Translations under genes and position numbers: made by a program
Virus record (IMG/VR): IMGVR_UViG_3300036398_002458
Location: 1-63,768 of that record
Direction: 5' to 3' (one strand)
Length of the DNA: 63,768 nt
Source of the DNA: a virus
Lineage: Duplodnaviria > Caudoviricetes
Notes under the pieces: model-generated
Told to the model about the DNA's origin: nothing
Database searches by the model: none
Seen by the model: only the letters and a program-made list of their open reading frames with translations
Shown here: positions 1 to 63,768 of the stretch, piece by piece
Layout: the number at the start of each line of letters is the position of its first letter
Numbering within the stretch: position 1 is the first letter of the stretch

Positions 1-1
1 T

Positions 2-160
2 TCGTTTGTGCCCTACGCACAATTGACAGAGAATGAGGTTCTGGGCTGGTGCTGGGCAAACGGCGTAGACAAGGCCGCAACCGAAGCCGCCGTTGAGCAA
101 CAAATCCAGAACCAGATCAACCCGCCCGTGGTGACGCCCGCACTTCCCTGGAGCAACTGA
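2..160 (+). CDS. Partial 3' end of tail-associated protein (allele of 63055-63390)
   Basis: Same frame as 63055-63390 but ends PPVVTPALPWSN* (TGA 158-160) instead of PPIVQPPLPWAAPVTA*. Confidence 0.8.
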   Translation, partial: SFVPYAQLTENEVLGWCWANGVDKAATEAAVEQQIQNQINPPVVTPALPWSN

Positions 161-162
161 AC

Positions 163-339
163 ATGACGCAACCCACCAACGATACCCCCATCACGCTGAC
201 CCTTGGCTTGGTCAACGGCATCCTGCAATATCTGGGTACCCGGCCTTACGCTGAAGTGTTCCCTTTAATTCAAGCCATTCAGGAGCAGGCCACGCCGCAG
301 GTGCCGGTGCCTGAAGTTAAAGACGAGCCGGTGCAGTGA
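163..339 (+). CDS. Small hypothetical protein, 58 aa (not in ORF track)
   Basis: Translated by hand: MTQPTNDTPITLTLGLVNGILQYLGTRPYAEVFPLIQAIQEQATPQVPVPEVKDEPVQ*. The allele at 63412-63585 keeps the core with mostly synonymous changes. TGATG coupling to the next gene. Confidence 0.85.
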   Translation: MTQPTNDTPITLTLGLVNGILQYLGTRPYAEVFPLIQAIQEQATPQVPVPEVKDEPVQ

Positions 340-536
340 TGGAAGAGTCGGTCGAAGTGCGCGTAGCGGTGCATGAGGCCGTCTGCGCCCAGAGGTACGA
401 GGCGATTGAAAAGCGCCTTGAAGATGGCAGCAAGCGGATGCGAAACATCGAAGTCTGGCTGTACATCACTCTGGGCGCTGTTCTGCTTGGCCCTGGCGCA
501 ATGGCAGAGGTGGTCAAGAAGTTCTTCGGGCTGTAG
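336..536 (+). CDS. Small membrane protein (coiled coil plus C-terminal TM), holin/XhlA-like
   Basis: HEAVCAQRYEAIEKRLE coil followed by hydrophobic WLYITLGAVLLG; first gene of the lysis-type cluster. Confidence 0.65.
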   Translation: MMEESVEVRVAVHEAVCAQRYEAIEKRLEDGSKRMRNIEVWLYITLGAVLLGPGAMAEVVKKFFGL

Positions 537-5779: not shown

Positions 5780-8700
5780 ATGGCGCGACTGTCCACAGAA
5801 GAAGAGTTTGAAACATTCCCGGAAGATGGGGGCGACGTCGCGCCCGCGCCCGCGCCTGCGCCTGCCCCTCCTTTTGATCTCAAGGCGTACATGTACGCGC
5901 TTGACCCCAACGATCATGCGCTTGCTACAAAGCGAGGCCTTGAATATGCAAAACAGCAGGGGTGGTCTCCCGAACGCACCGTAGCGGAGTGGAATAAAGC
6001 CCTTGGCACGTCCTTTACGCTCGCCGACTACTACCGCGTCACCGGTACGCAGCCTACCCCCACACCCACGGCTACACCCACGGCCACGCCCACGGCTACG
6101 CCTACGCCTACGCCCATGGCCACGCCTACGCCCACGGCCACGGTTGTTACTACACCTGAGCCCACGGCTACGGTTGCGCCTACGCCTGAACCTACGCCCA
6201 CGGCAGTAGTTACGCCCACGGCTACGGTTGCGCCTACGCCTGAACCTACGCCCACGGCAGTAGTTACGCCCACGGCTACGCCCACGGCTACGACTACACC
6301 GACGCCCGCTCCCACGCCTGCGCCCGCTACACAGGGCCCCCCGCTGCCCGCATGGGCGCGGAACATGCCAACTACGTACAGCGAAGAAGGTCGTAAGTTG
6401 CCGGACGGAACTTACGTTGGCGACGCTTACGGCTACTTCTTTACCGACTTTCGCGCCGCGTACAACGATACAAGTCCAAGTTACCCGGACGATCTGCGCC
6501 GATTTTTTGCTGCGCAGAAAGTGCAGTCCACGCTTGATACCTACGGGGTCACTGATCCTGAGCAACTGAAGAACTTCAAGATAGCCACGACCCCCAGTGG
6601 CGTCATTGCGATATTCAACCCGGACGGCTCCATCCGGTCCCAACGCTACGACGCACTGCTGGATACACGTGGTGCGGGCTTTGGCGACTTCCTCAAGAGC
6701 GCGGCGTCGATCGCCGTCATGGCGTTCCCGGGCATCGGTACCGCAATCGGCAGCGCACTTACCTCTGCTGCGGGCGTAACGGTAAGCGCCGCCACAAACG
6801 CTTTTATCGGCAGCGTCGTCATGAACACGGCGCTCAGCGGCGGAAATATCAAGGCTGCGGTAACGCAAGCGGTCGCATCAGTTGCCAGTTCGGCAGCGGC
6901 CAACGCCGTTGGAAATGCGGCGGCGGGTTTGTTTGACGGCGAGTTAGGTACTCGGTTCGTTGAGTCTGTCACACGAGATGTGACCCGCGCTGCCATTCTG
7001 GGGCAAGACCTAACGTCAGCGGCTACTGCATCCGTACTGGGCAATGCAACCGAGTTGGCGCTAAGCAAGATTCCCGGCTTTTCGTCTTTGCCGCCCACGG
7101 CTCAGTTGGCAGTGCGGCAGTCGGTGTACACAACGCTTCAGGGTGGCGACATGTCCAACCTGGGGGCATCCATCACCAATGCGGTGACCAATGGAGCGAT
7201 TGCATTTGGCATTTCGCAGATACCGGGCTTCGATCAACTGACCCGGTTCCAACAGCGCGTTGCTACCTCTTTGCTGACTACCGCCATCAAGGGTGGAGAT
7301 CTTTCGGCAGCGGCTATCAATCTGGCCATCAATCAGGTCGGACGTACGCTCTCGTCTGCTTCTTCTAAGACATTCCGTGATGTTGGCAAGAGCGCGGGGT
7401 TCTACGAGTTTGCGGACGGGTCGTACCTAGACGGCGACAAGTATTACGACAAAGGCGGCAATCTTGTCTCTACGGGGCAGACCCGGGAGTCTATAGGTAA
7501 GCCCTTGGCGGGAGAGGCCGAAACCGCCGTCACAACTCCTACCCCCACCGCCACCGAGCAGGTGACGGTCACCACGGCGACGCCGCTCCCCACGGAAGTC
7601 GTTGCACCCACTGCCACGCCTATTCCTACGCCGGTAATTACTCCCGTAGTTACGCCTACGCCTACGCCTACGCCTACGCCTACTCCTACGCCCACTGCCA
7701 CCGAGCAGGTGACGGTCACGGCTACGCCCACGCCAGAGCCCACGGATATTGTGGTTACTCCCACACCGTCTCCGGTTGTCACGCCAGTGATCACGCCGGT
7801 AGTTACTCCCGTAGTTACGCCTACGCCCACCGCTACGGAACAAGTGACGGTCACGGCTACGCCCACGCCAGAGCCTACGGATATTGTGGTTACTCCGGTT
7901 GTTACTCCGGTCGTGACACCCGTGATCACGCCGGTTGTCACCCCCGTAGTTACGCCCACTGCCACCGAGCAGGTGACGGTCACGGCTACGCCTACACCGG
8001 AGCCTACGGATACTGAGGTTATCCCCACACCGTCTCCGGTCGTCACGCCCGTGATCACGCCGGTCGTCACCCCCGTAGTTACGCCCACTGCCACCGAGCA
8101 GGTGACGGTCACGGCTACGCCCACGTCGGAGCCTACGGATACTGAGGTTACTACCACACCGTCTCCGGTTGTCACGCCCGTGATCACGCCGGTCGTCACC
8201 CCGACGCCTACCCCCACGGCTACTCAGACCGTGACGGTTACGACAACGGTTTTGCCAACCGATACGGTTACGCCTACTCCGGTCACGACGCCAACGCAAA
8301 CCGTGACGGTCACGACGCCAACGCCCACGGGAACGCCAACTCAGACCGTTACTGTGACGGCTACAACGCTGCCGACGGACACGCCGACGCCTACCCCGAC
8401 CCCGACCCCGACAGTGGAGCCTACGGTAGAGCCTACGGTGGAACCTACGGTGACGCCTACGGTAGTAACGAACACCCCAACTCAAACCGTAACAGTCACG
8501 GCAACAAAACTGCCGACGGATACGCCTACCCCGACACCCACGCCTACTCCTACTCCTACTCCTACTCCTACTCCTACCCCGACGCCGACGCCGACACCCA
8601 CGCCCACGCCCACGCCCACGCCCACGCCTACCTTCGTAGTACGTCCCAGGACGCCAACGCCAAACTTAACAGTACCTGAGGGCGCAGGGGCGCAAATGAC

Positions 8701-8890
8701 AACCATATCGCCGGTCTATGGGGGCAAATACACCGCAGTCGATCCCTACCGCACTCTGGACGAAATCTTGCAGGGCGGTAAAGGTGACCTTTTTTCTCTC
8801 CTACAAACTAGAATGGCCGAAGGCGGCCACGTAACCAATCAACCCAAGCGGCCCGGTACGTTGGAAGACCTGCTGCGCCTGCTGAAATGA
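5780..8890 (+). CDS. Pro/Thr-rich repeat protein, putative internal virion protein, 1036 aa
   Basis: Long ORF with two PT-repeat tracts flanking an Ala/Gly-rich hydrophobic region; MAEGG near the C-terminus. Confidence 0.8.
6050..6330 (+). repeat. In-frame Pro/Thr tandem repeats (ACGCCY/ACGGCY hexamers; duplicated [18 protein letters not shown] unit)
   Basis: Visible directly in the DNA and the translation. Confidence 0.9.
7530..8635 (+). repeat. Hierarchical Pro/Thr/Val repeats: ~40-aa units ([18 protein letters not shown]...VVTP) and (PT)n runs
   Basis: ACYGCCACCGAGCAGGTGACGGTCAC recurs near 7548, 7694, 7958 and 8087; pure PT hexamer runs at ~7652-7693 and ~8522-8632. Confidence 0.9.
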
Positions 8891-30511: not shown

Positions 30512-30726
30512 TCCTTGCTCCTTGCTCTGATGGCGTCCCCATATGTGCCGCCGCCTTCCTTGAGTATGTGGTCAACCAACTTCGCGCACTCCTCTCGTTC
30601 CCGTTCAGCCACCAGTCGAGCAAAGTGTTCAAACGAAGCGATGCCCGTGCTAGAAGCGACCATGAAACGCCGGTCAATGTAGGCGTGTGCCTTGTTTGCC
30701 AGTTCAATGATTTCTTCTTGGGTCAT
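30508..30726 (-). CDS. Hypothetical protein (MTQEEIIELA..EREECAK..AIRAR)
   Basis: Translationally coupled ORF, related to the two downstream genes. Confidence 0.7.
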   Translation of the reverse strand: MTQEEIIELANKAHAYIDRRFMVASSTGIASFEHFARLVAEREREECAKLVDHILKEGGGTYGDAIRARSKE

Positions 30727-31034
30727 ATCCCGCTCCCCTTCCGGCATGGCCACGCTGCGCGCATTGCCTGGGAGGCCAAGAAGTCGGCAGACAAGTGCCT
30801 CTGCTCTGGCCTGTTTTCCAGATAGCGTTTAACCACATCAAGCGCCTGCCCCAATGTCACATCGCTTGGTGAGCAGAACAGAACCTTGTCGTTGGCATCA
30901 TGGACACCCGCCACATAGAACATGACCTGAGAAAGCCGCCCATCTCGCAGGCGCTCGTAGAGTTCGTTCCCGCTGAAGAACTGTGCCTGGGCGGGGCCGC
31001 TGCACAGCGCCAAGACTGCAATCCATTTCTTCAT
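30723..31034 (-). CDS. Secreted Rap1a/Tai-like immunity-family protein
   Basis: Signal peptide [17 protein letters not shown], then SGNELY..YVAGVHD..FCSP..VTLGQ..VVKRYLENRPEQRH..A..AMRAAWPC. Confidence 0.75.
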   Translation of the reverse strand: MKKWIAVLALCSGPAQAQFFSGNELYERLRDGRLSQVMFYVAGVHDANDKVLFCSPSDVTLGQALDVVKRYLENRPEQRHLSADFLASQAMRAAWPCRKGSGI

Positions 31035-31150
31035 ATCATTCCCCACAAGTAAGTCAGCAACATCATCAGCGTCACGAACGGGGCGAGGAACACCACGACC
31101 ATGACGGTGATCAGCCAGTACAGGACGATGAATTCACCAAGCCATCTCAT
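31031..31150 (-). CDS. Small hydrophobic membrane peptide, 39 aa
   Basis: AAGGAG RBS; [39 protein letters not shown]. Confidence 0.6.
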
Positions 31151-31875
31151 GTTTGCGTCTCCTTCTTCTCTTTCTTGCGCTGCTCTTCTTCCCACGCAGC
31201 GCGTTCGTCCGGGCTCATCTTGGCCCACTCATGCGCTTGCCTGATGGCGTCGAAGTCCACGCCCTTTGAAATCCCTGCGCATTCGCGCAGTGTGTCCACG
31301 CGGGTAGGGTGCTTGAGTTTACGGATGGCCTTTGTCTCGATCTGACGGATGCGTTCCCGGCACACATCGAACTTGGCGCTCACCTCTTCCAACGTGAGTT
31401 CGCTCTGAGTGTCGATACCAAACCGCAGACGTAACACCTTGGCCTCTCGCGGCGTTAGGCTGTCGAGCATCTCGGCTACAACACGATGCCGATCTTCTTC
31501 CTCCAGGCCCGCATCGGGGGCGGGGGCCTCAAGCAACTCCCCGGTGTGCCGTGCAAGCATCTCCACCATCGCCCTGTGGCTCATGCCAAAGTGCGACTTG
31601 TTGGTGGGCAGCACAAACAGCAACTGCTCAGGCGTCCACAGGTCTTCGGGCAACACCCCCAGGAACTCGCAAAGGCGTTGAGCGGTGGGAATGATCTCCC
31701 CGCTCTTGCCCATCGGTGACGCCTTGAAGTTAATCAAATTACCGATGTGCGTCGGGGTCAGGTTTGCAGCCTTGCAGAACTGCGCCACATTTGCGTAGCC
31801 CGCCTTCTCGATGGCGTTGAGGATGAGGTTGTTCCTGACCTTGAGGTCTATGCGGTATTCGCCGTCGTCGCTCAT
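31147..31875 (-). CDS. XRE-type HTH fused to a sigma70 region 4 domain
   Basis: N-terminal [36 protein letters not shown]; C-terminal [45 protein letters not shown], closely RpoD region 4-like; no region 2. Confidence 0.85.
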
Positions 31876-31994
31876 GTCAACCACCCTGCCCAGTGAAGGA
31901 AGTACACCAGGGAGAAGAACAGAAAGCCCAGTGCCATCAGCATGGCGATGAGCCACCCCAACTCTTCCATGCCATCGTCTTCATAACGATTCAT
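31872..31994 (-). CDS. Small single-TM peptide, 40 aa
   Basis: GGAGG RBS; coupled by ATGA overlaps on both sides. Confidence 0.6.
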
Positions 31995-38768: not shown

Positions 38769-38981
38769 TCAGTCCTCCAGTTGGGTTATCACGGCGTCGA
38801 TCCGGGCCATCTGATCGGCCAACACCTTGGCCTTGAACGCGTACCAACCTTCGGGCAGGTCGGCGTCGCCGTAGCGGTCCTGCATGTACCCGTCGAGCGG
38901 TGTGCGTACGTTGCGCCATTCGCGCAGGATCGTGAGCAGGGTGTACGCCGTGTCCGGCGTCAGGTTCAGACTGGTTTTCAT
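38769..38981 (-). CDS. Hypothetical early protein, 70 aa
   Basis: GGAG RBS; first ORF after the long leader. Confidence 0.7.
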   Translation of the reverse strand: MKTSLNLTPDTAYTLLTILREWRNVRTPLDGYMQDRYGDADLPEGWYAFKAKVLADQMARIDAVITQLED

Positions 38982-39000
38982 GTGGTTTCTCCAGGTTGGG

Positions 39001-39029
39001 CCCCGCCATCTAAGGCTTAGATGACGGGG
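39001..39029. repeat. Palindromic box (39008-39022) with extended stem CCCCGCC..GACGGGG
   Basis: Seen directly. Confidence 0.95.
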
Positions 39030-39072
39030 GTTTGGGTTGTTAAGTGTTTGGTTAGATGTTTGGGTGTTGTTG

Positions 39073-39347
39073 AGTGCGATAGGACGTGTCAGCGTGGCAT
39101 CTCCCGCATCACTGCGGCTCCACGCTCAAGGGAACGTACCGGTTTCCCGGCATAGGTTCCCATCCATTTAGGCACTATGCGTCGGCTTTGCATCACGCTA
39201 TCCCCGTTCGGAGCCGGGCAGGGCTCACTACTCTACGGGTACACCACGGATGCACCGGACTGACTACCGGACGCCTTCTCGCGCAGGGAGGTTACTTGGA
39301 TGTACCGGGCGTCTCACGACGTGGACCGGGCTAGCCTATCTTTCACC
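39073..39347 (-). ncRNA. Candidate structured non-coding RNA, ~275-330 nt
   Basis: No credible ORF. Closing helix GATAGG/CCTATC, three GNRA-capped hairpins only on the minus strand, bracketed by two extended boxes and downstream of a near-consensus promoter. Confidence 0.55.
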
Positions 39348-39386
39348 TATGGCGCTTCTGCCATGTGGCAGCGGCGGTTTGTTTGC

Positions 39387-39413
39387 CCCGGCATCTAAGG
39401 CTTAGATGACGGG
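39387..39413. repeat. Palindromic box (39393-39407) with extended stem CCCGGC..GACGGG
   Basis: Near-identical to the 39001-39029 copy. Confidence 0.95.
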
Positions 39414-39426
39414 ACGGGTCAGCGGA

Positions 39427-39439
39427 TTGTTAAGGAGCG
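39427..39439 (-). promoter_or_regulatory. boxA-like antitermination motif CGCTCCTTAACAA
   Basis: One mismatch from GCTCTTTAACA; ~65 nt downstream of the early promoter. Confidence 0.45.
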
Positions 39440-39509
39440 CGGGTTGGCATGGGGTAGGGGAAATGGCAACCGCATCGGAGATCGCAGGGCGAAGTCCGAC
39501 TGAACCCTT

Positions 39510-39538
39510 ATTATGCCTGAAAGCGGGGCGTTTGTCAA
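39510..39538 (-). promoter_or_regulatory. Strong sigma70 early promoter TTGACA-N17-CATAAT
   Basis: Near-consensus hexamers with ideal spacing, pointing into the early operon. Confidence 0.8.
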
Positions 39539-39577
39539 GTCTCCAGAAAATGTTTTGGAGAGTGAGATTGGAGGGGG

Positions 39578-40021
39578 TTGTAACGGATGTAACGAAATTG
39601 GCGAGGTTGTAACGAAATTCGCGTAACAACACTAACCCTTAGGGGGACAATGAATGGCGTGGTAGTGGGGGCTTACTTCAGGGGCGAAAATGGGGGGTGC
39701 AACGGTGTAACGCGGTTTTAGAGAGAGAAAGCGAAAAAACAAGAATTTTCGCTCAAAAAACAAGTCACCAAGGGTTTACACCTACAAAATGAGCGAAATT
39801 TGGGAATCATATAAAAATCCGCGTTACAGCGTTACATCCTATCTATCTATCTATTATGTAGTGTAGTAACAACACAAACACCTGCTTTTTCCTACGGGTT
39901 GCTACCTACTTTTGCTACATTTTGCAGCAACTCGGGGTGTTTTCGTTCGGGTTAACCCGAGGGTTAGTGTTGTAACGCCGATTTCGTTACATCGAGGCAA
40001 ATTTCGTTACATCCGTTACAA
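39578..40021. other. Candidate replication origin: 62-bp inverted repeats carrying TGTAACG iterons around an AT-rich core
   Basis: 39578-39639 vs 39960-40021 (8 mismatches); inner IR ~39698-39720 vs ~39814-39836; about 10 TGTAACG/CGTTACA heptamers. Confidence 0.6.
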
Positions 40022-40181
40022 GGTCATCTAAGGCTTAGATGCGAAAGTGCTTGACGCCGCGCAAAAAAGCGCGCACACTACGTGTGCGCGGTCATCTAAG
40101 GCTTAGATGCCGCCCCTGCGTGATAGTGTCTAATCTTAGATGCGGCGGGGTCGGCCCGGCGATCTAAGATTAGATGCGGCG
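40022..40181. repeat. Cluster of four palindromic boxes (40026, 40094 perfect; 40128, 40162 14-bp variants)
   Basis: GGTCATCTAAGGCTTAGATGC is identical at 40022-40042 and 40090-40110; TTAGATGCGGCG at 40136 and 40170. Confidence 0.9.
40051..40079 (+). promoter_or_regulatory. Possible sigma70 promoter TTGACG-N17-CACACT between two boxes
   Basis: Correct spacing; no downstream ORF; -10 lies in hairpin CGCGCACAC-TAC-GTGTGCGCG. Confidence 0.4.
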
Positions 40182-63054: not shown

Positions 63055-63390
63055 ATGGCTACGACTATTACCTGGGTAATCTCTGCCCTTGATTGCATCC
63101 CCAACACCCCTGAAGGTGCTGACTACGTTGTCACGGCCCACTGGTCCTGCAACGGCACGGACGGCACTTATAGCGGCAGCGTCTACTCGACCTGCTCGTT
63201 CCCGGTGGTGCAGGGTTCTTCGTTTGTGCCCTACGCACAATTGACAGAGAATGAGGTTCTGGGCTGGTGCTGGGCAAACGGCGTAGACAAGGCCGCAACC
63301 GAAGCCGCCGTTGAGCAACAAATCCAGAACCAGATCAACCCGCCCATCGTGCAACCCCCGTTGCCCTGGGCTGCTCCCGTAACTGCTTAA
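63055..63390 (+). CDS. Tail-associated hypothetical protein
   Basis: AAGGAG RBS; VVTAHW..FVPYAQLTENEVLGW..LPW. Confidence 0.75.
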   Translation: MATTITWVISALDCIPNTPEGADYVVTAHWSCNGTDGTYSGSVYSTCSFPVVQGSSFVPYAQLTENEVLGWCWANGVDKAATEAAVEQQIQNQINPPIVQPPLPWAAPVTA

Positions 63391-63768
63391 CCCAACTCCG
63401 AAAGGAAACCCATGAACGACAAGACTGAAATCAAACTGACCCTCGGCTTGGTCAACGGCATCCTGCAATACCTGGGCACCCGCCCGTATTCGGAAGTGTT
63501 CCCGTTGATCGCGGAAATCCAGTCGCAGGCTACGCCGCAGGTGCCGGTGCCTGACGTCGCTCAAGGCGAAACCCAGGTGCAGTGATGGAAGAGTCGGTCG
63601 AAGTGCGCGTAGCGGTGCATGAGGCCGTCTGCGCCCAGAGGTACGAGGCGATTGAGAAGCGCCTTGAAGATGGCAGCAAGCGGATGCGAAACATCGAAGT
63701 CTGGCTGTACATCACTCTGGGCGCTGTTCTGCTTGGCCCTGGCGCAATGGCAGAGGTGGTCAAGAAGT
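63219..63768 (+). repeat. Terminal direct repeat, right copy (see 1-522)
   Basis: Direct comparison of the two ends. Confidence 0.95.
63412..63585 (+). CDS. Small hypothetical protein, 57 aa (allele of 163-339)
   Basis: AAGGA RBS; MNDKTEIKLTLGLVNGILQYLGTRPYSEVFPLIAEIQSQATPQVPVPDVAQGETQVQ*. Confidence 0.85.
   Translation: MNDKTEIKLTLGLVNGILQYLGTRPYSEVFPLIAEIQSQATPQVPVPDVAQGETQVQ

What the first reader, a model, noticed from the sequence alone, without database searches (positions are those of the whole stretch)
39023..39392. Box-bracketed ~300-nt structured RNA is the first product of the strong early promoter
Seen on the minus strand: closing helix GGUG-AAA-GAUAGG..CCUAUC-G-CACU (39347-39335 with 39083-39073); CGUC-GUGA-GACG (39321-39310); UGCAUC/GAUGCA (39254-39249 with 39194-39189); GGGAAC..GCCGG-GAAA-CCGGU-AC-GUUCCC (39161-39130); AGCGUGG..CCGCA-GUGA-UGCGG..CCACGCU (39126-39091). 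Three GNRA tetraloops appear only on this strand, there is no credible ORF, A/C-rich unstructured linkers lie on both sides, and near-identical extended box hairpins flank it. Inference: a discrete phage ncRNA (decoy for a host defence or RNA-binding protein, ribozyme or antiterminator) treated as one cassette of the box array.
Basis: partly seen in the sequence, partly recalled or inferred. Interest (0 to 1): 0.8.

Follow-up and report, generated by a model that had tools for sequence, protein, structure and literature searches.

The report
New structured RNA heading phage early operon
An elaborately folded RNA of about 300 nucleotides, matching no catalogued RNA family, is conserved in a large group of uncultured phages and sits first behind their early promoter and a copy of the bacterial ribosomal-RNA anti-termination signal; its job is still unknown.

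Summary

**Structure.** Window 39376-39073 (minus strand) is one member of a conserved non-coding RNA family. I collected 31 distinct homologues from IMG/VR and metagenome contigs.
- Two covariance models give 95-96% paired cells. 24 of 32 and 26 of 33 pairs show compensatory changes, against 30-44% pairing when partners are slid.
- The fold has three domains and 12 helices.
The proposed closing helix is wrong: CACU pairs locally with AGUG, and GGUG pairs with ACCU.

**Known families.** Rfam 15 has no match. The single-sequence folding energy is no better than shuffles (z -0.63).

**Context.** A near-consensus sigma-70 promoter is followed by an rrn-type boxA: 10 of 11 consensus positions in the window and 11 of 11 in 17 of 27 relatives. 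Then come a hairpin tipped by the phage-specific palindrome and the RNA. The downstream palindrome is present in only 18 of 31 homologues, and the first gene varies.

**Reading.** Most likely (about 0.45) this is a stable RNA made rRNA-operon style, with Nus factors protecting the untranslated stretch. The main rival (0.3) is a boxA-tethered RNA that modifies RNA polymerase in cis. The function is not shown.

The parts
39510..39538 (-). Sigma-70-type early promoter: TTGACA (39538-39533), 17-nt spacer, CATAAT (39515-39510). The transcription start near 39503 is inferred.
   Evidence: 11 of 12 consensus positions; for coordinates. A TTGAC[AT] element lies 66-102 nt upstream of boxA in all 27 leaders examined.
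39426..39438 (-). rrn-type boxA, GCUCCUUAACAAU. It matches 10 of 11 positions of the published consensus GYTCTTTAANA.
   Evidence: It is the only exact copy in the window. 17 of 27 relatives match the consensus exactly and 10 of 27 have one mismatch (consensus from PMC5725501, passages read). A relative's leader is 22 of 24 identical to the E. coli rrn leader 121-144 nt before a 16S gene.
39386..39413 (-). Upstream 'box' hairpin, CCCGUCAUCUAA-GCC-UUAGAUGCCGGGG. In relatives it forms the tip of a longer hairpin (P0) whose 5' strand is a boxC-like UUUGUGUA.
   Evidence: Single-sequence minimum-free-energy folds of the leaders of 26 of 27 homologues show it. RNAalifold on a MAFFT alignment did not recover it.
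39272..39376 (-). 5' domain, a three-way junction. H1: CGCC 39376-39373 with GGCG 39275-39272. Ha: hairpin 39371-39358. Hf: GCGC 39355-39352 with GCGC 39284-39281. Hg: AGGU 39348-39345 with ACCU 39292-39289. Hg carries a variable insert that includes CGUC-GUGA-GACG at 39321-39310.
   Evidence: H1 occurs in three compensatory forms: CGCC/GGCG, CAUC/GAUG and CGUC/GACG. Helices 1-5 of alignment A6 are 93-98% paired. Coordinates.
39189..39270 (-). Central domain. Hb: hairpin 39270-39255. Hc: UGCAUC 39254-39249 with GAUGCA 39194-39189. He: CCCG 39239-39236 with CGGG 39206-39203. Hd: hairpin 39226-39211.
   Evidence: Helices 6-8 of A6. The same architecture appears in single-sequence folds of all 31 homologues. 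He is lineage-specific.
39177..39188 (-). Linker AAGCCGACGCAU. Its ACGC is conserved in at least 90% of homologues, and no partner was found.
   Evidence: Consensus of A6.
39073..39176 (-). 3' domain. Pa: AGUGC 39176-39172 with GCACU 39077-39073. Conserved internal loop: CUAAAU 39171-39166 opposite UAUC. Pb: GGAU 39165-39162 with GUCC 39085-39082. hp1: 39161-39130, GAAA loop. hp2: 39126-39091.
   Evidence: Model R1 and alignment A7: 95.9% of cells paired, 24 of 32 pairs with changes on both sides, slid controls 30-44%.
39030..39071 (-). A/C-rich, G-free linker after the RNA. It is not conserved in relatives.
39001..39029 (-). Downstream 'box' hairpin (13 bp). A counterpart is present in 18 of 31 homologues.
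38769..38981 (-). First ORF of the early operon (70 aa, preceded by GGAGAAACCAC). A different gene follows the RNA in L009, L013 and L004.
   Evidence: No Pfam or PHROG match.

Best explanation
**What it is.** Window 39376-39073 (minus strand) encodes one member of a structured RNA family that matches nothing in Rfam 15. Members are 260-500 nt, with three domains and 12 helices. The family forms the first, untranslated module of the early operon in a large clade of uncultured phages. Their closest cultured relative is Pelagibacter phage HTVC023P (terminase 44% identical).

**What is shown.**
- The RNA fold and its conservation.
- Its fixed place behind a near-consensus sigma-70 promoter, an rrn-type boxA and a hairpin (P0) tipped by the phage's own palindrome.
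- Its independence from the identity of the gene that follows.

**What is inferred.**
- Host RNA polymerase starts at the promoter.
- NusB and NusE (S10) bind boxA as they do on rRNA leaders. That keeps the 0.5-0.8 kb untranslated stretch free of Rho termination and may help the RNA fold as it is made.
- The RNA is then trimmed, at the P0 stem and in the single-stranded A-rich 3' flank or the downstream palindrome where there is one. It accumulates as a stable RNA that acts in trans on a host or phage component in the first minutes of infection.
- In short, the phage has borrowed the rRNA-operon recipe for making large amounts of a folded RNA.

I put at least 0.95 on 'real conserved structured RNA family behind an rrn-type boxA'. 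I put about 0.45 on the 'released, trans-acting stable RNA' part. The target is unknown.
For: **The fold.**
- 31 distinct homologues were found.
- 3' domain: 95.9% of cells paired and 24 of 32 pairs changed on both sides. None of 500 shuffles reaches the observed value on four of five measures, and 1 of 500 on the fifth. Slid controls give 30-44%.
- 5' and central domains: 95.0% paired, 26 of 33 pairs changed on both sides, slid controls 30-43%.
- The long-range helix H1 switches between CGCC/GGCG, CAUC/GAUG and CGUC/GACG. It is concordant in 29 of 31 by script. L009 is concordant by eye, and L107's 5' strand was not located.
- Single-sequence folds of every homologue give the same helices without using the alignment.
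- Many G-U pairs make the fold strand-specific, for example GU 16 / GC 12 at one pair and GU 22 at another.
- No frame is open across the RNA in the 30 homologues examined.

**The rRNA-operon-like setting.**
- boxA matches the published consensus.
- A relative's leader is 22 of 24 identical to the E. coli rrn leader at the boxA position.
- The boxC-like UUUGUGUA is the 5' strand of a long stem, as boxC is in rrn operons, where the RNase III site overlaps it (PMC10250234, passages read).

**Independence from neighbours and prevalence.**
- The gene after the RNA differs among close relatives.
- The RNA is present in 13 of the 15 terminase-linked loci that hold at least 3.1 kb upstream.

**No sign that extra antitermination is needed.** Terminator-like sites in 32-42 kb are not enriched (12 found, 10.1 expected).
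Against: - No expression or end-mapping data exist. The only runs that hold part of the region cover 39709-40111, not the RNA.
- Single-sequence folding energy is no better than shuffles.
- Processing at flanking palindromes cannot be the general rule, because 13 of 31 homologues lack the downstream copy.
- No leader-trailer pairing beyond the palindromes was found. Homologues lacking the downstream palindrome give z from +1.1 to -2.3.
- The P0 stem has almost no covariation, because its 5' strand is nearly invariant.
- The constant 10-12 nt spacing between boxA and P0 fits the cis-acting rival just as well.
- No RNA-binding or RNA-processing protein was recognised among the 36 ORFs scanned.
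- The alignments behind searches were fitted to the models' structures, which favours those structures.
Confidence: 0.45

Rival explanations
1. The RNA is a cis-acting modifier of RNA polymerase, a very large nut- or put-like site. Held at the RNA exit channel through boxA, NusB and NusE, the folded RNA contacts the polymerase or recruits further host factors. It takes the role that protein N plays in lambda, or that put RNA plays in HK022. The result is a processive polymerase for the roughly 20 kb early operon of a phage in which no RNA polymerase gene was recognised.
For: - The order boxA, then a 10-12 nt spacer, then hairpin P0, then the RNA holds in the 27 leaders examined.
- There is one copy per genome, always at the head of the single long minus-strand operon.
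- Only two sigma-70-like promoters were found in 32-42 kb.
- No RNA polymerase gene was recognised among the 36 ORFs scanned, but a sigma-70 region 4 protein is present.
- 13 of 31 homologues have the RNA running straight into the first gene's 5' UTR, without a downstream palindrome.
Against: - With 260-500 nt and 12 helices it is, as I recall, several times larger than any known cis-antiterminator RNA (put about 70 nt, EAR about 120 nt).
- Terminator-like hairpins are not enriched in the operon, so the need is not evident.
- rrn-type boxA alone is known to counter Rho (PMC5725501, passages read).
- The plus-strand late operon has neither boxA nor the RNA.
Confidence: 0.3
2. The RNA is a riboswitch-like sensor in the 5' UTR of the early operon. 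Its conserved junctions bind a metabolite, ion or host RNA and set the level of early gene expression.
For: - The junction nucleotides are highly conserved: CUAAAUGG, CGACA and CCUAUCG are each at least 90% conserved.
- Helix tips vary, as in aptamers.
- Some relatives have two terminator-like hairpins after the 3' domain. One contains UAUCUUGUAG, which resembles the 3' strand of Pa and could allow alternative pairing.
Against: - No conserved expression platform exists. The region after the 3' domain differs between lineages and in the window is an unstructured A/C-rich linker.
- The core is larger than most known aptamers.
- No Rfam riboswitch matches.
Confidence: 0.1
3. The RNA is a self-processing or trans-cleaving ribozyme that cuts itself out of the early transcript or cuts a host RNA.
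For: Its size, multi-domain fold and invariant unpaired nucleotides are in the range of large ribozymes.
Against: No match to any ribozyme family in Rfam 15. No conserved candidate cleavage site was identified. Nothing here tests catalysis.
Confidence: 0.07
4. It is not a functional RNA: either chance folding of G+C-rich spacer DNA, or a DNA-level element or small gene.
For: Folding energy is no better than shuffles. An 82-aa ORF lies on the plus strand at 39086-39334.
Against: 50 of 65 modelled pairs show compensatory changes. G-U pairs are valid on one strand only. Insertions of 0-190 nt fall at helix tips. No stop-free frame spans the region in any of the 30 homologues examined.
Confidence: 0.01

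Closest known systems
Bacterial rRNA operon leader (promoter, boxB hairpin, boxA, boxC) followed by a stable RNA
   Same: Strong promoter, a leader hairpin, a boxA that matches the consensus GYTCTTTAANA, and a boxC-like U/G-rich segment that forms one strand of a long stem. A large untranslated folded RNA follows. One relative shares 22 of 24 nt with the E. coli rrn leader.
   Different: The boxC-like strand pairs locally to form hairpin P0, not with a trailer. The RNA shows no likeness to E. coli 16S, 23S or 5S rRNA (best 8.3 and 4.0 bits). Protein genes follow in the same operon.
Lambda nut sites and HK022 put RNAs (cis-acting processive antitermination; recalled, plus PMC10250234 passages read)
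   Same: The position just behind early promoters, and boxA followed by a phage-specific hairpin. The palindrome differs between related phages, much as boxB differs between lambdoid phages.
   Different: No N-like protein was identified. The RNA is many times larger than nut or put. The palindrome recurs at 9-10 intergenic places without boxA.
Large 'ornate' phage-associated RNAs of unknown function (GOLLD, ROOL)
   Same: A big, multi-domain, strongly covarying RNA carried by phages with no known function. A GAAA loop plus a receptor-like internal loop could mediate docking or self-assembly (the receptor motif is recalled from memory).
   Different: No match to their Rfam models. It is shorter (260-500 nt). 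It sits at a fixed position at the head of an early operon behind boxA.
T7 early region: RNase III hairpins between early genes, with the first product an anti-defence factor (gene 0.3) (recalled)
   Same: Repeated intergenic hairpins in a host-polymerase-transcribed early operon. The first product comes before any replication gene.
   Different: The first product here is an RNA. Cleavage at the hairpins is untested, and 13 of 31 homologues lack the 3' hairpin.
boxA in front of other untranslated or regulated transcripts (suhB 5' UTR, PMC5725501; CRISPR arrays, recalled)
   Same: boxA used outside rRNA to shield or regulate RNA that ribosomes do not cover.
   Different: Here it is in a phage, immediately fused to a large structured RNA.

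Membership tests
Any Rfam 15 family (4227 models, including GOLLD, ROOL, phage pRNA, riboswitches, ribozymes, 6S, tmRNA, RNase P) | Covariance-model score at or above the family's gathering threshold | tested here: not met
   0 matches in the window. No match inside 39072-39392 even at E up to 10. 0 matches in 12 homologous loci, 140,898 nt. No tRNA or tmRNA by ARAGORN.
rrn-type boxA (NusB/NusE site) | Sequence GYTCTTTAANA on the transcript shortly after the promoter | tested here: met
   Window GCTCCTTAACA: 10 of 11. 17 of 27 relatives are exact and 10 of 27 have one mismatch. Consensus from PMC5725501. Similarity to the E. coli rrn leader.
rrn-type boxA (NusB/NusE site) | Binds NusB/NusE and confers resistance to Rho | not testable with these tools
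   Needs binding or read-through assays.
rrn boxC / leader-trailer helix | UCUGUGUGGG-like element 18-19 nt after boxA that pairs with a trailer beyond the stable RNA | tested here: not met
   A boxC-like UUUGUGUA lies about 16-20 nt after boxA. It pairs locally in P0. Leader-trailer duplexes are not better than shuffles where no downstream palindrome exists (z +1.1 to -2.3).
rRNA-derived RNA | Sequence and structure likeness to 16S, 23S or 5S rRNA | tested here: not met
   R1 and R2 against an E. coli rrn operon: best 8.3 bits (E 0.88) and 4.0 bits.
Riboswitch | Conserved aptamer coupled to a conserved expression platform (terminator or RBS-sequestering helix) | tested here: not met
   The sequence after the 3' domain is not conserved across lineages. 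Ligand binding is not testable here.
Hairpin-bracketed processing cassette (T7-like RNase III sites) | Processing hairpins on both sides of the unit in all members | tested here: not met
   Upstream palindrome in 27 of 31 homologues, downstream in 18 of 31. Cleavage is not testable here.
HK022 put-type antiterminator RNA | Two stem-loops of about 70 nt that act in cis on the transcribing polymerase | not tested
The size and fold differ from what I recall of put.
11-nt GAAA tetraloop receptor | CCUAAG opposite UAUGG in a helix, with a partner GAAA loop (motif recalled from memory) | tested here: inconclusive
   The internal loop is CCUAAAU(G) opposite (C)CUAUCG in 23 of 31 and 30 of 31 homologues. 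The hp1 loop is GAAA in 19 of 31. It is a near match, not identical, and docking is untested.

The most novel reading that the evidence does not exclude
The RNA is an RNA-only substitute for an N-type antitermination protein. Tethered to RNA polymerase through boxA, NusB and NusE, this 300-nt folded RNA reprogrammes the host elongation complex for the whole 20 kb early operon. That would make it by far the largest and most elaborate cis-acting transcription-elongation RNA known. It would also be the first case of a phage outside the lambdoid group capturing the host rRNA antitermination machinery with an RNA partner.
Probability: 0.3. Interest if true: 0.9.

Novelty: new variant of a known kind. 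Interest (0 to 1): 0.72.

Why it matters
Large RNAs with many covarying helices and invariant junctions are rare, and those studied have tended to turn out to be ribozymes, ribonucleoprotein scaffolds or self-assembling particles.

This family has three features that make it worth pursuing:
- **It is widespread.** It was found in 13 of the 15 loci with enough upstream sequence, drawn from a clade with 221 terminase relatives in IMG/VR.
- **It is in the most privileged place in the genome.** It is the first thing transcribed from the early promoter.
- **It is fused to a copy of the host's rRNA antitermination signal.**

Together these point to a new way for a phage that appears to lack its own RNA polymerase to use host Nus factors. 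The purpose could be to mass-produce a folded RNA, or to remodel the polymerase itself.

The work here supplies a covariation-backed fold, defined boundaries and 31 sequences. These make direct tests possible: expression in a proteobacterium, boxA and nus mutants, pull-downs and cryo-EM.

Tried and rejected
- **Phage collection, DNA search.** blastn of 38950-39600 against 50,697 phage records gave no match.
- **Exact-pattern scans of 185,579 species genomes.** One pattern gave 0 hits. The other gave 1 hit that is a chance match beside a Tannerella gene and has no model hit. These are exact-match scans only, so absence from bacteria is not shown.
- **Cultured relatives.** Pelagibacter phage HTVC023P and phage DSL-LC04 have no R1 match. 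The tool itself warns that an empty answer shows little.
- **Expression.** No RNA holder is listed. Four wastewater runs labelled RNA-Seq (flagged by the tool as probably DNA) hold contigs only over 39709-40111 and a few short pieces. None covers the RNA. This is no evidence either way.
- **rRNA mimicry.** Rejected at covariance-model level. 10-11-nt complementarities to E. coli 16S and 23S rRNA are at chance level and are not conserved in the window lineage.
- **Leader-trailer helix around the RNA.** Only the palindromes pair.
- **P0 stem.** RNAalifold on MAFFT alignments failed to recover it. On the first seven sequences it also proposed a wrong long-range CCGC/GUGG pairing, later replaced by H1.
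- **AUAGG pairing with CCUAU.** The 5' side varies without compensation, so this was rejected.
- **N4-like reading.** Only the AAA ATPase resembles N4-like phages, at about 25% identity. No virion RNA polymerase was recognised.
- **A single genome end near the RNA.** Related contigs break at scattered points across about 1 kb, not at one site.
- **Prior catalogues.** Supplements of PMC10690425, a catalogue of 10,006 candidate structured RNAs from IMG/VR, could not be seen. This RNA may be listed there unnamed. I read only that paper's abstract and outline.
- **Literature.** Four searches found no description of such an RNA.

Full report
**The window and the sequence elements**

The window is a complete IMG/VR virus record of 63,768 nt. 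Minus-strand early and replication genes run from about 39.0 kb down to 18.9 kb. Plus-strand structural genes run from 41.3 kb onward.

Taken alone, the sequence does not fold better than chance:
- Sense strand: minimum free energy -125.6 kcal/mol against -121.9 +/- 5.9 for shuffles, z -0.63.
- Antisense strand: z +0.67.

The comparative evidence overrules it.

**Homologues**

A neighbouring 257-aa protein led to two related contigs whose upstream DNA aligned with the region and already showed compensatory changes. Further sequences came from several routes:
- Motif scans gave more copies: 3 viral contigs and 6 metagenome contigs.
- The large terminase has 221 relatives in IMG/VR, of which the best 80 were fetched.
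- A covariance model of the 3' domain (R1) hit 12 further, much more divergent loci. All lie on the strand opposite terL and 2.7-4.1 kb upstream of it.
- A second motif scan added 25 viral contigs, of which 15 of the 18 sources searched gave R1 hits.

After removing duplicates there are 31 distinct sequences. Of the 80 terminase loci, 15 hold at least 3.1 kb upstream of terL. 13 of those 15 carry the RNA, and L074 and L091 gave no hit.

**The fold: 3' domain**

The 3' domain (window 39176-39073) consists of:
- a closing helix Pa;
- a conserved internal loop, CUAAAU opposite UAUC;
- helix Pb;
- two hairpins, hp1 and hp2. Some lineages have a third hairpin inserted between them.

On 31 sequences, 95.9% of cells pair and 24 of 32 pairs change on both sides. 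Sliding the partners gives 30-44%.

**The fold: 5' and central domains**

A second model (R2) covers the 5' and central domains. It gives 95.0% paired and 26 of 33 pairs changed on both sides, with slid controls at 30-43%.

The 5' domain is a three-way junction of H1, Ha and Hf-Hg. H1 is a 4-bp long-range helix that occurs as CGCC/GGCG, CAUC/GAUG or CGUC/GACG. Hg carries inserts of 0 to about 190 nt.

The central domain has hairpin Hb and a long-range helix Hc that encloses a conserved internal loop and a variable inner hairpin.

Single-sequence folds of every homologue recover these helices independently of any alignment.

Frequent G-U pairs make the structure valid on the minus strand only. 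No stop-free frame spans the RNA in any of the 30 homologues examined.

One caveat applies. The alignments used for counting were fitted to the models, which favours them. The slid controls and the independent single-sequence folds argue that this is not the cause.

- Hc (UGCAUC/GAUGCA), hp1 and hp2 are confirmed.
- CGUC-GUGA-GACG sits in the variable insert of Hg. Only the window and L013 have it, with identical sequence, so it is untestable.
- The proposed closing helix is wrong. CACU pairs with the nearby AGUG (becoming CUAC/GUAG in relatives). GGUG is part of AGGU, which pairs with ACCU. GAUAGG is in the insert that most homologues lack, while CCUAUCG is kept in 30 of 31.

**Known families**

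Nothing matches in Rfam 15:
- the window at gathering thresholds;
- the region at E up to 10;
- 12 homologous loci, 141 kb in all.

ARAGORN finds nothing. The two models find nothing in an E. coli rrn operon.

Four literature searches found no description. A 2023 catalogue of 10,006 candidate structured RNAs from IMG/VR (PMC10690425; abstract and outline read) may list it in supplements that I could not open.

**Context upstream of the RNA**

1. The promoter TTGACA-17-CATAAT scores 11 of 12. A -35 element lies 66-102 nt before boxA in all 27 leaders examined.
2. About 65-100 nt into the transcript lies GCUCCUUAACA. This matches 10 of 11 positions of the boxA consensus GYTCTTTAANA (PMC5725501, passages read). 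17 of 27 relatives match exactly and 10 have one mismatch.
3. A relative's leader is 22 of 24 identical to the E. coli rrn leader 121-144 nt before a 16S gene. Read side by side, the two share TCTTTAACAATTTATCAG and then a U/G-rich UGUGU segment like boxC (boxC and its RNase III site from PMC10250234, passages read).
4. In 26 of 27 leaders this boxC-like strand starts a long hairpin (P0). Its tip is the phage's palindrome and its 3' strand ends where the RNA begins. Formal covariation for P0 is lacking because the 5' strand hardly varies.
5. boxA occurs once in the window.

**The box array**

The palindrome family is real: 10 places in the window against 0.05 expected. It is uniform within a genome and differs between related phages.

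Bracketing of the RNA is not conserved. 27 of 31 homologues have an upstream copy, but only 18 of 31 have a downstream copy within 160 nt.

The gene that follows the RNA differs among close relatives. No leader-trailer pairing beyond the palindromes is detectable.

**The phage**

- Its terminase is 44% identical to that of Pelagibacter phage HTVC023P. That phage and DSL-LC04 gave no R1 hit.
- Among the 36 ORFs scanned I recognised a DNA polymerase, a primase-helicase, a helicase, a MoxR-type ATPase with a VWA/metallopeptidase partner, a sigma-70 region 4 protein and an HTH protein.
- I recognised no RNA polymerase and no RNA-processing enzyme.
- Terminator-like hairpins are not enriched in the early operon.

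**Mechanism**

Shown:
- a conserved, strand-specific, three-domain RNA;
- its fixed position behind the promoter, boxA and P0;
- its independence from downstream genes.

Inferred:
- host polymerase and Nus factors act on boxA;
- this protects the 0.5-0.8 kb untranslated stretch from Rho;
- the RNA is trimmed and accumulates.

I favour the reading that the phage copies the rRNA-operon recipe to make a stable folded RNA that acts in trans early in infection (about 0.45).

The main rival is that the boxA-tethered RNA itself remodels the polymerase in cis (about 0.3). The tight boxA-P0-RNA arrangement and the apparent lack of a phage polymerase fit it. The RNA's size and the absence of evident terminators argue against it.

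A riboswitch-like sensor (0.1) lacks a conserved expression platform. A ribozyme (0.07) has no support beyond size and conservation.

**Expression**

Expression could not be examined. The only runs that hold part of the region carry short contigs over 39709-40111, not over the RNA.

**Verdict**

This is a genuine new structured RNA family with an unusual rRNA-like setting. Its fold is now defined, but its function is open. The closing helix and the cassette-between-boxes idea are not.

Noticed in passing
window 39560-40070 (both strands): The gene-free stretch between two terminator-like hairpins (40298-40281 and 40090-40070, minus strand) and the early promoter holds many GTAACG/CGTTAC copies in both orientations, like iterons or an operator array. 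Many related IMG/VR contigs break within about 1 kb of the equivalent region. Four wastewater runs hold short contigs over 39709-40111 only.
   Followed up: partly
window 32840, 35213, 36423, 37705, 38551, 39007, 39392, 40025, 40093, 40989; L060:2246-2359: The intergenic palindrome (core TCTAA-gcc-TTAGA) is uniform within a genome. It is replaced by a different palindrome in related phages: TATAAccTTATA, TCTAAtaTTAGA, CTTAAgcTTAAG or TTTAActgTTAAA. That suggests a co-evolving phage factor. In L060 a copy forms the tip of hp2 inside the RNA.
   Followed up: partly
window 31147-31956 (-): A 269-aa protein has a sigma-70 region 4 domain (E 1.7e-16). It is a likely phage sigma-like factor for host core polymerase. 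No RNA polymerase gene was recognised among the 36 ORFs scanned.
   Followed up: no
window 30723-31046 (-): A 107-aa protein matches the Rap1a family, which are type VI secretion immunity proteins (E 3.9e-17). This is unexpected in a phage early region.
   Followed up: no
window 1-522 and 63219-63768: The two ends of the record repeat each other at 82-99% identity, not 100%. This looks like a circular or terminally redundant genome assembled across strain variants.
   Followed up: no
window 5780-8890 (+): A 1036-aa ORF has long tandem Pro/Thr-rich repeats of 12-nt period, plus four 129-135-nt repeats. It has no PHROG match.
   Followed up: no
window 39166-39171 with 39078-39081; hp1 loop 39146-39143: The invariant internal loop CCUAAAU opposite CUAUCG is one or two letters away from the 11-nt GAAA-tetraloop receptor as I recall it. 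hp1 carries GAAA in 19 of 31 homologues. This is a lead for intramolecular docking or self-assembly.
   Followed up: partly
L027, L072, L006, L038, L068 and others, 10-70 nt after the 3' domain: Many relatives, but not the window, carry a conserved module CUGUUUAUCUUGUAG followed by a hairpin. Its UAUCUUGUAG echoes the 3' strand of Pa (UAUCGUAG) and could compete for the same partner.
   Followed up: no
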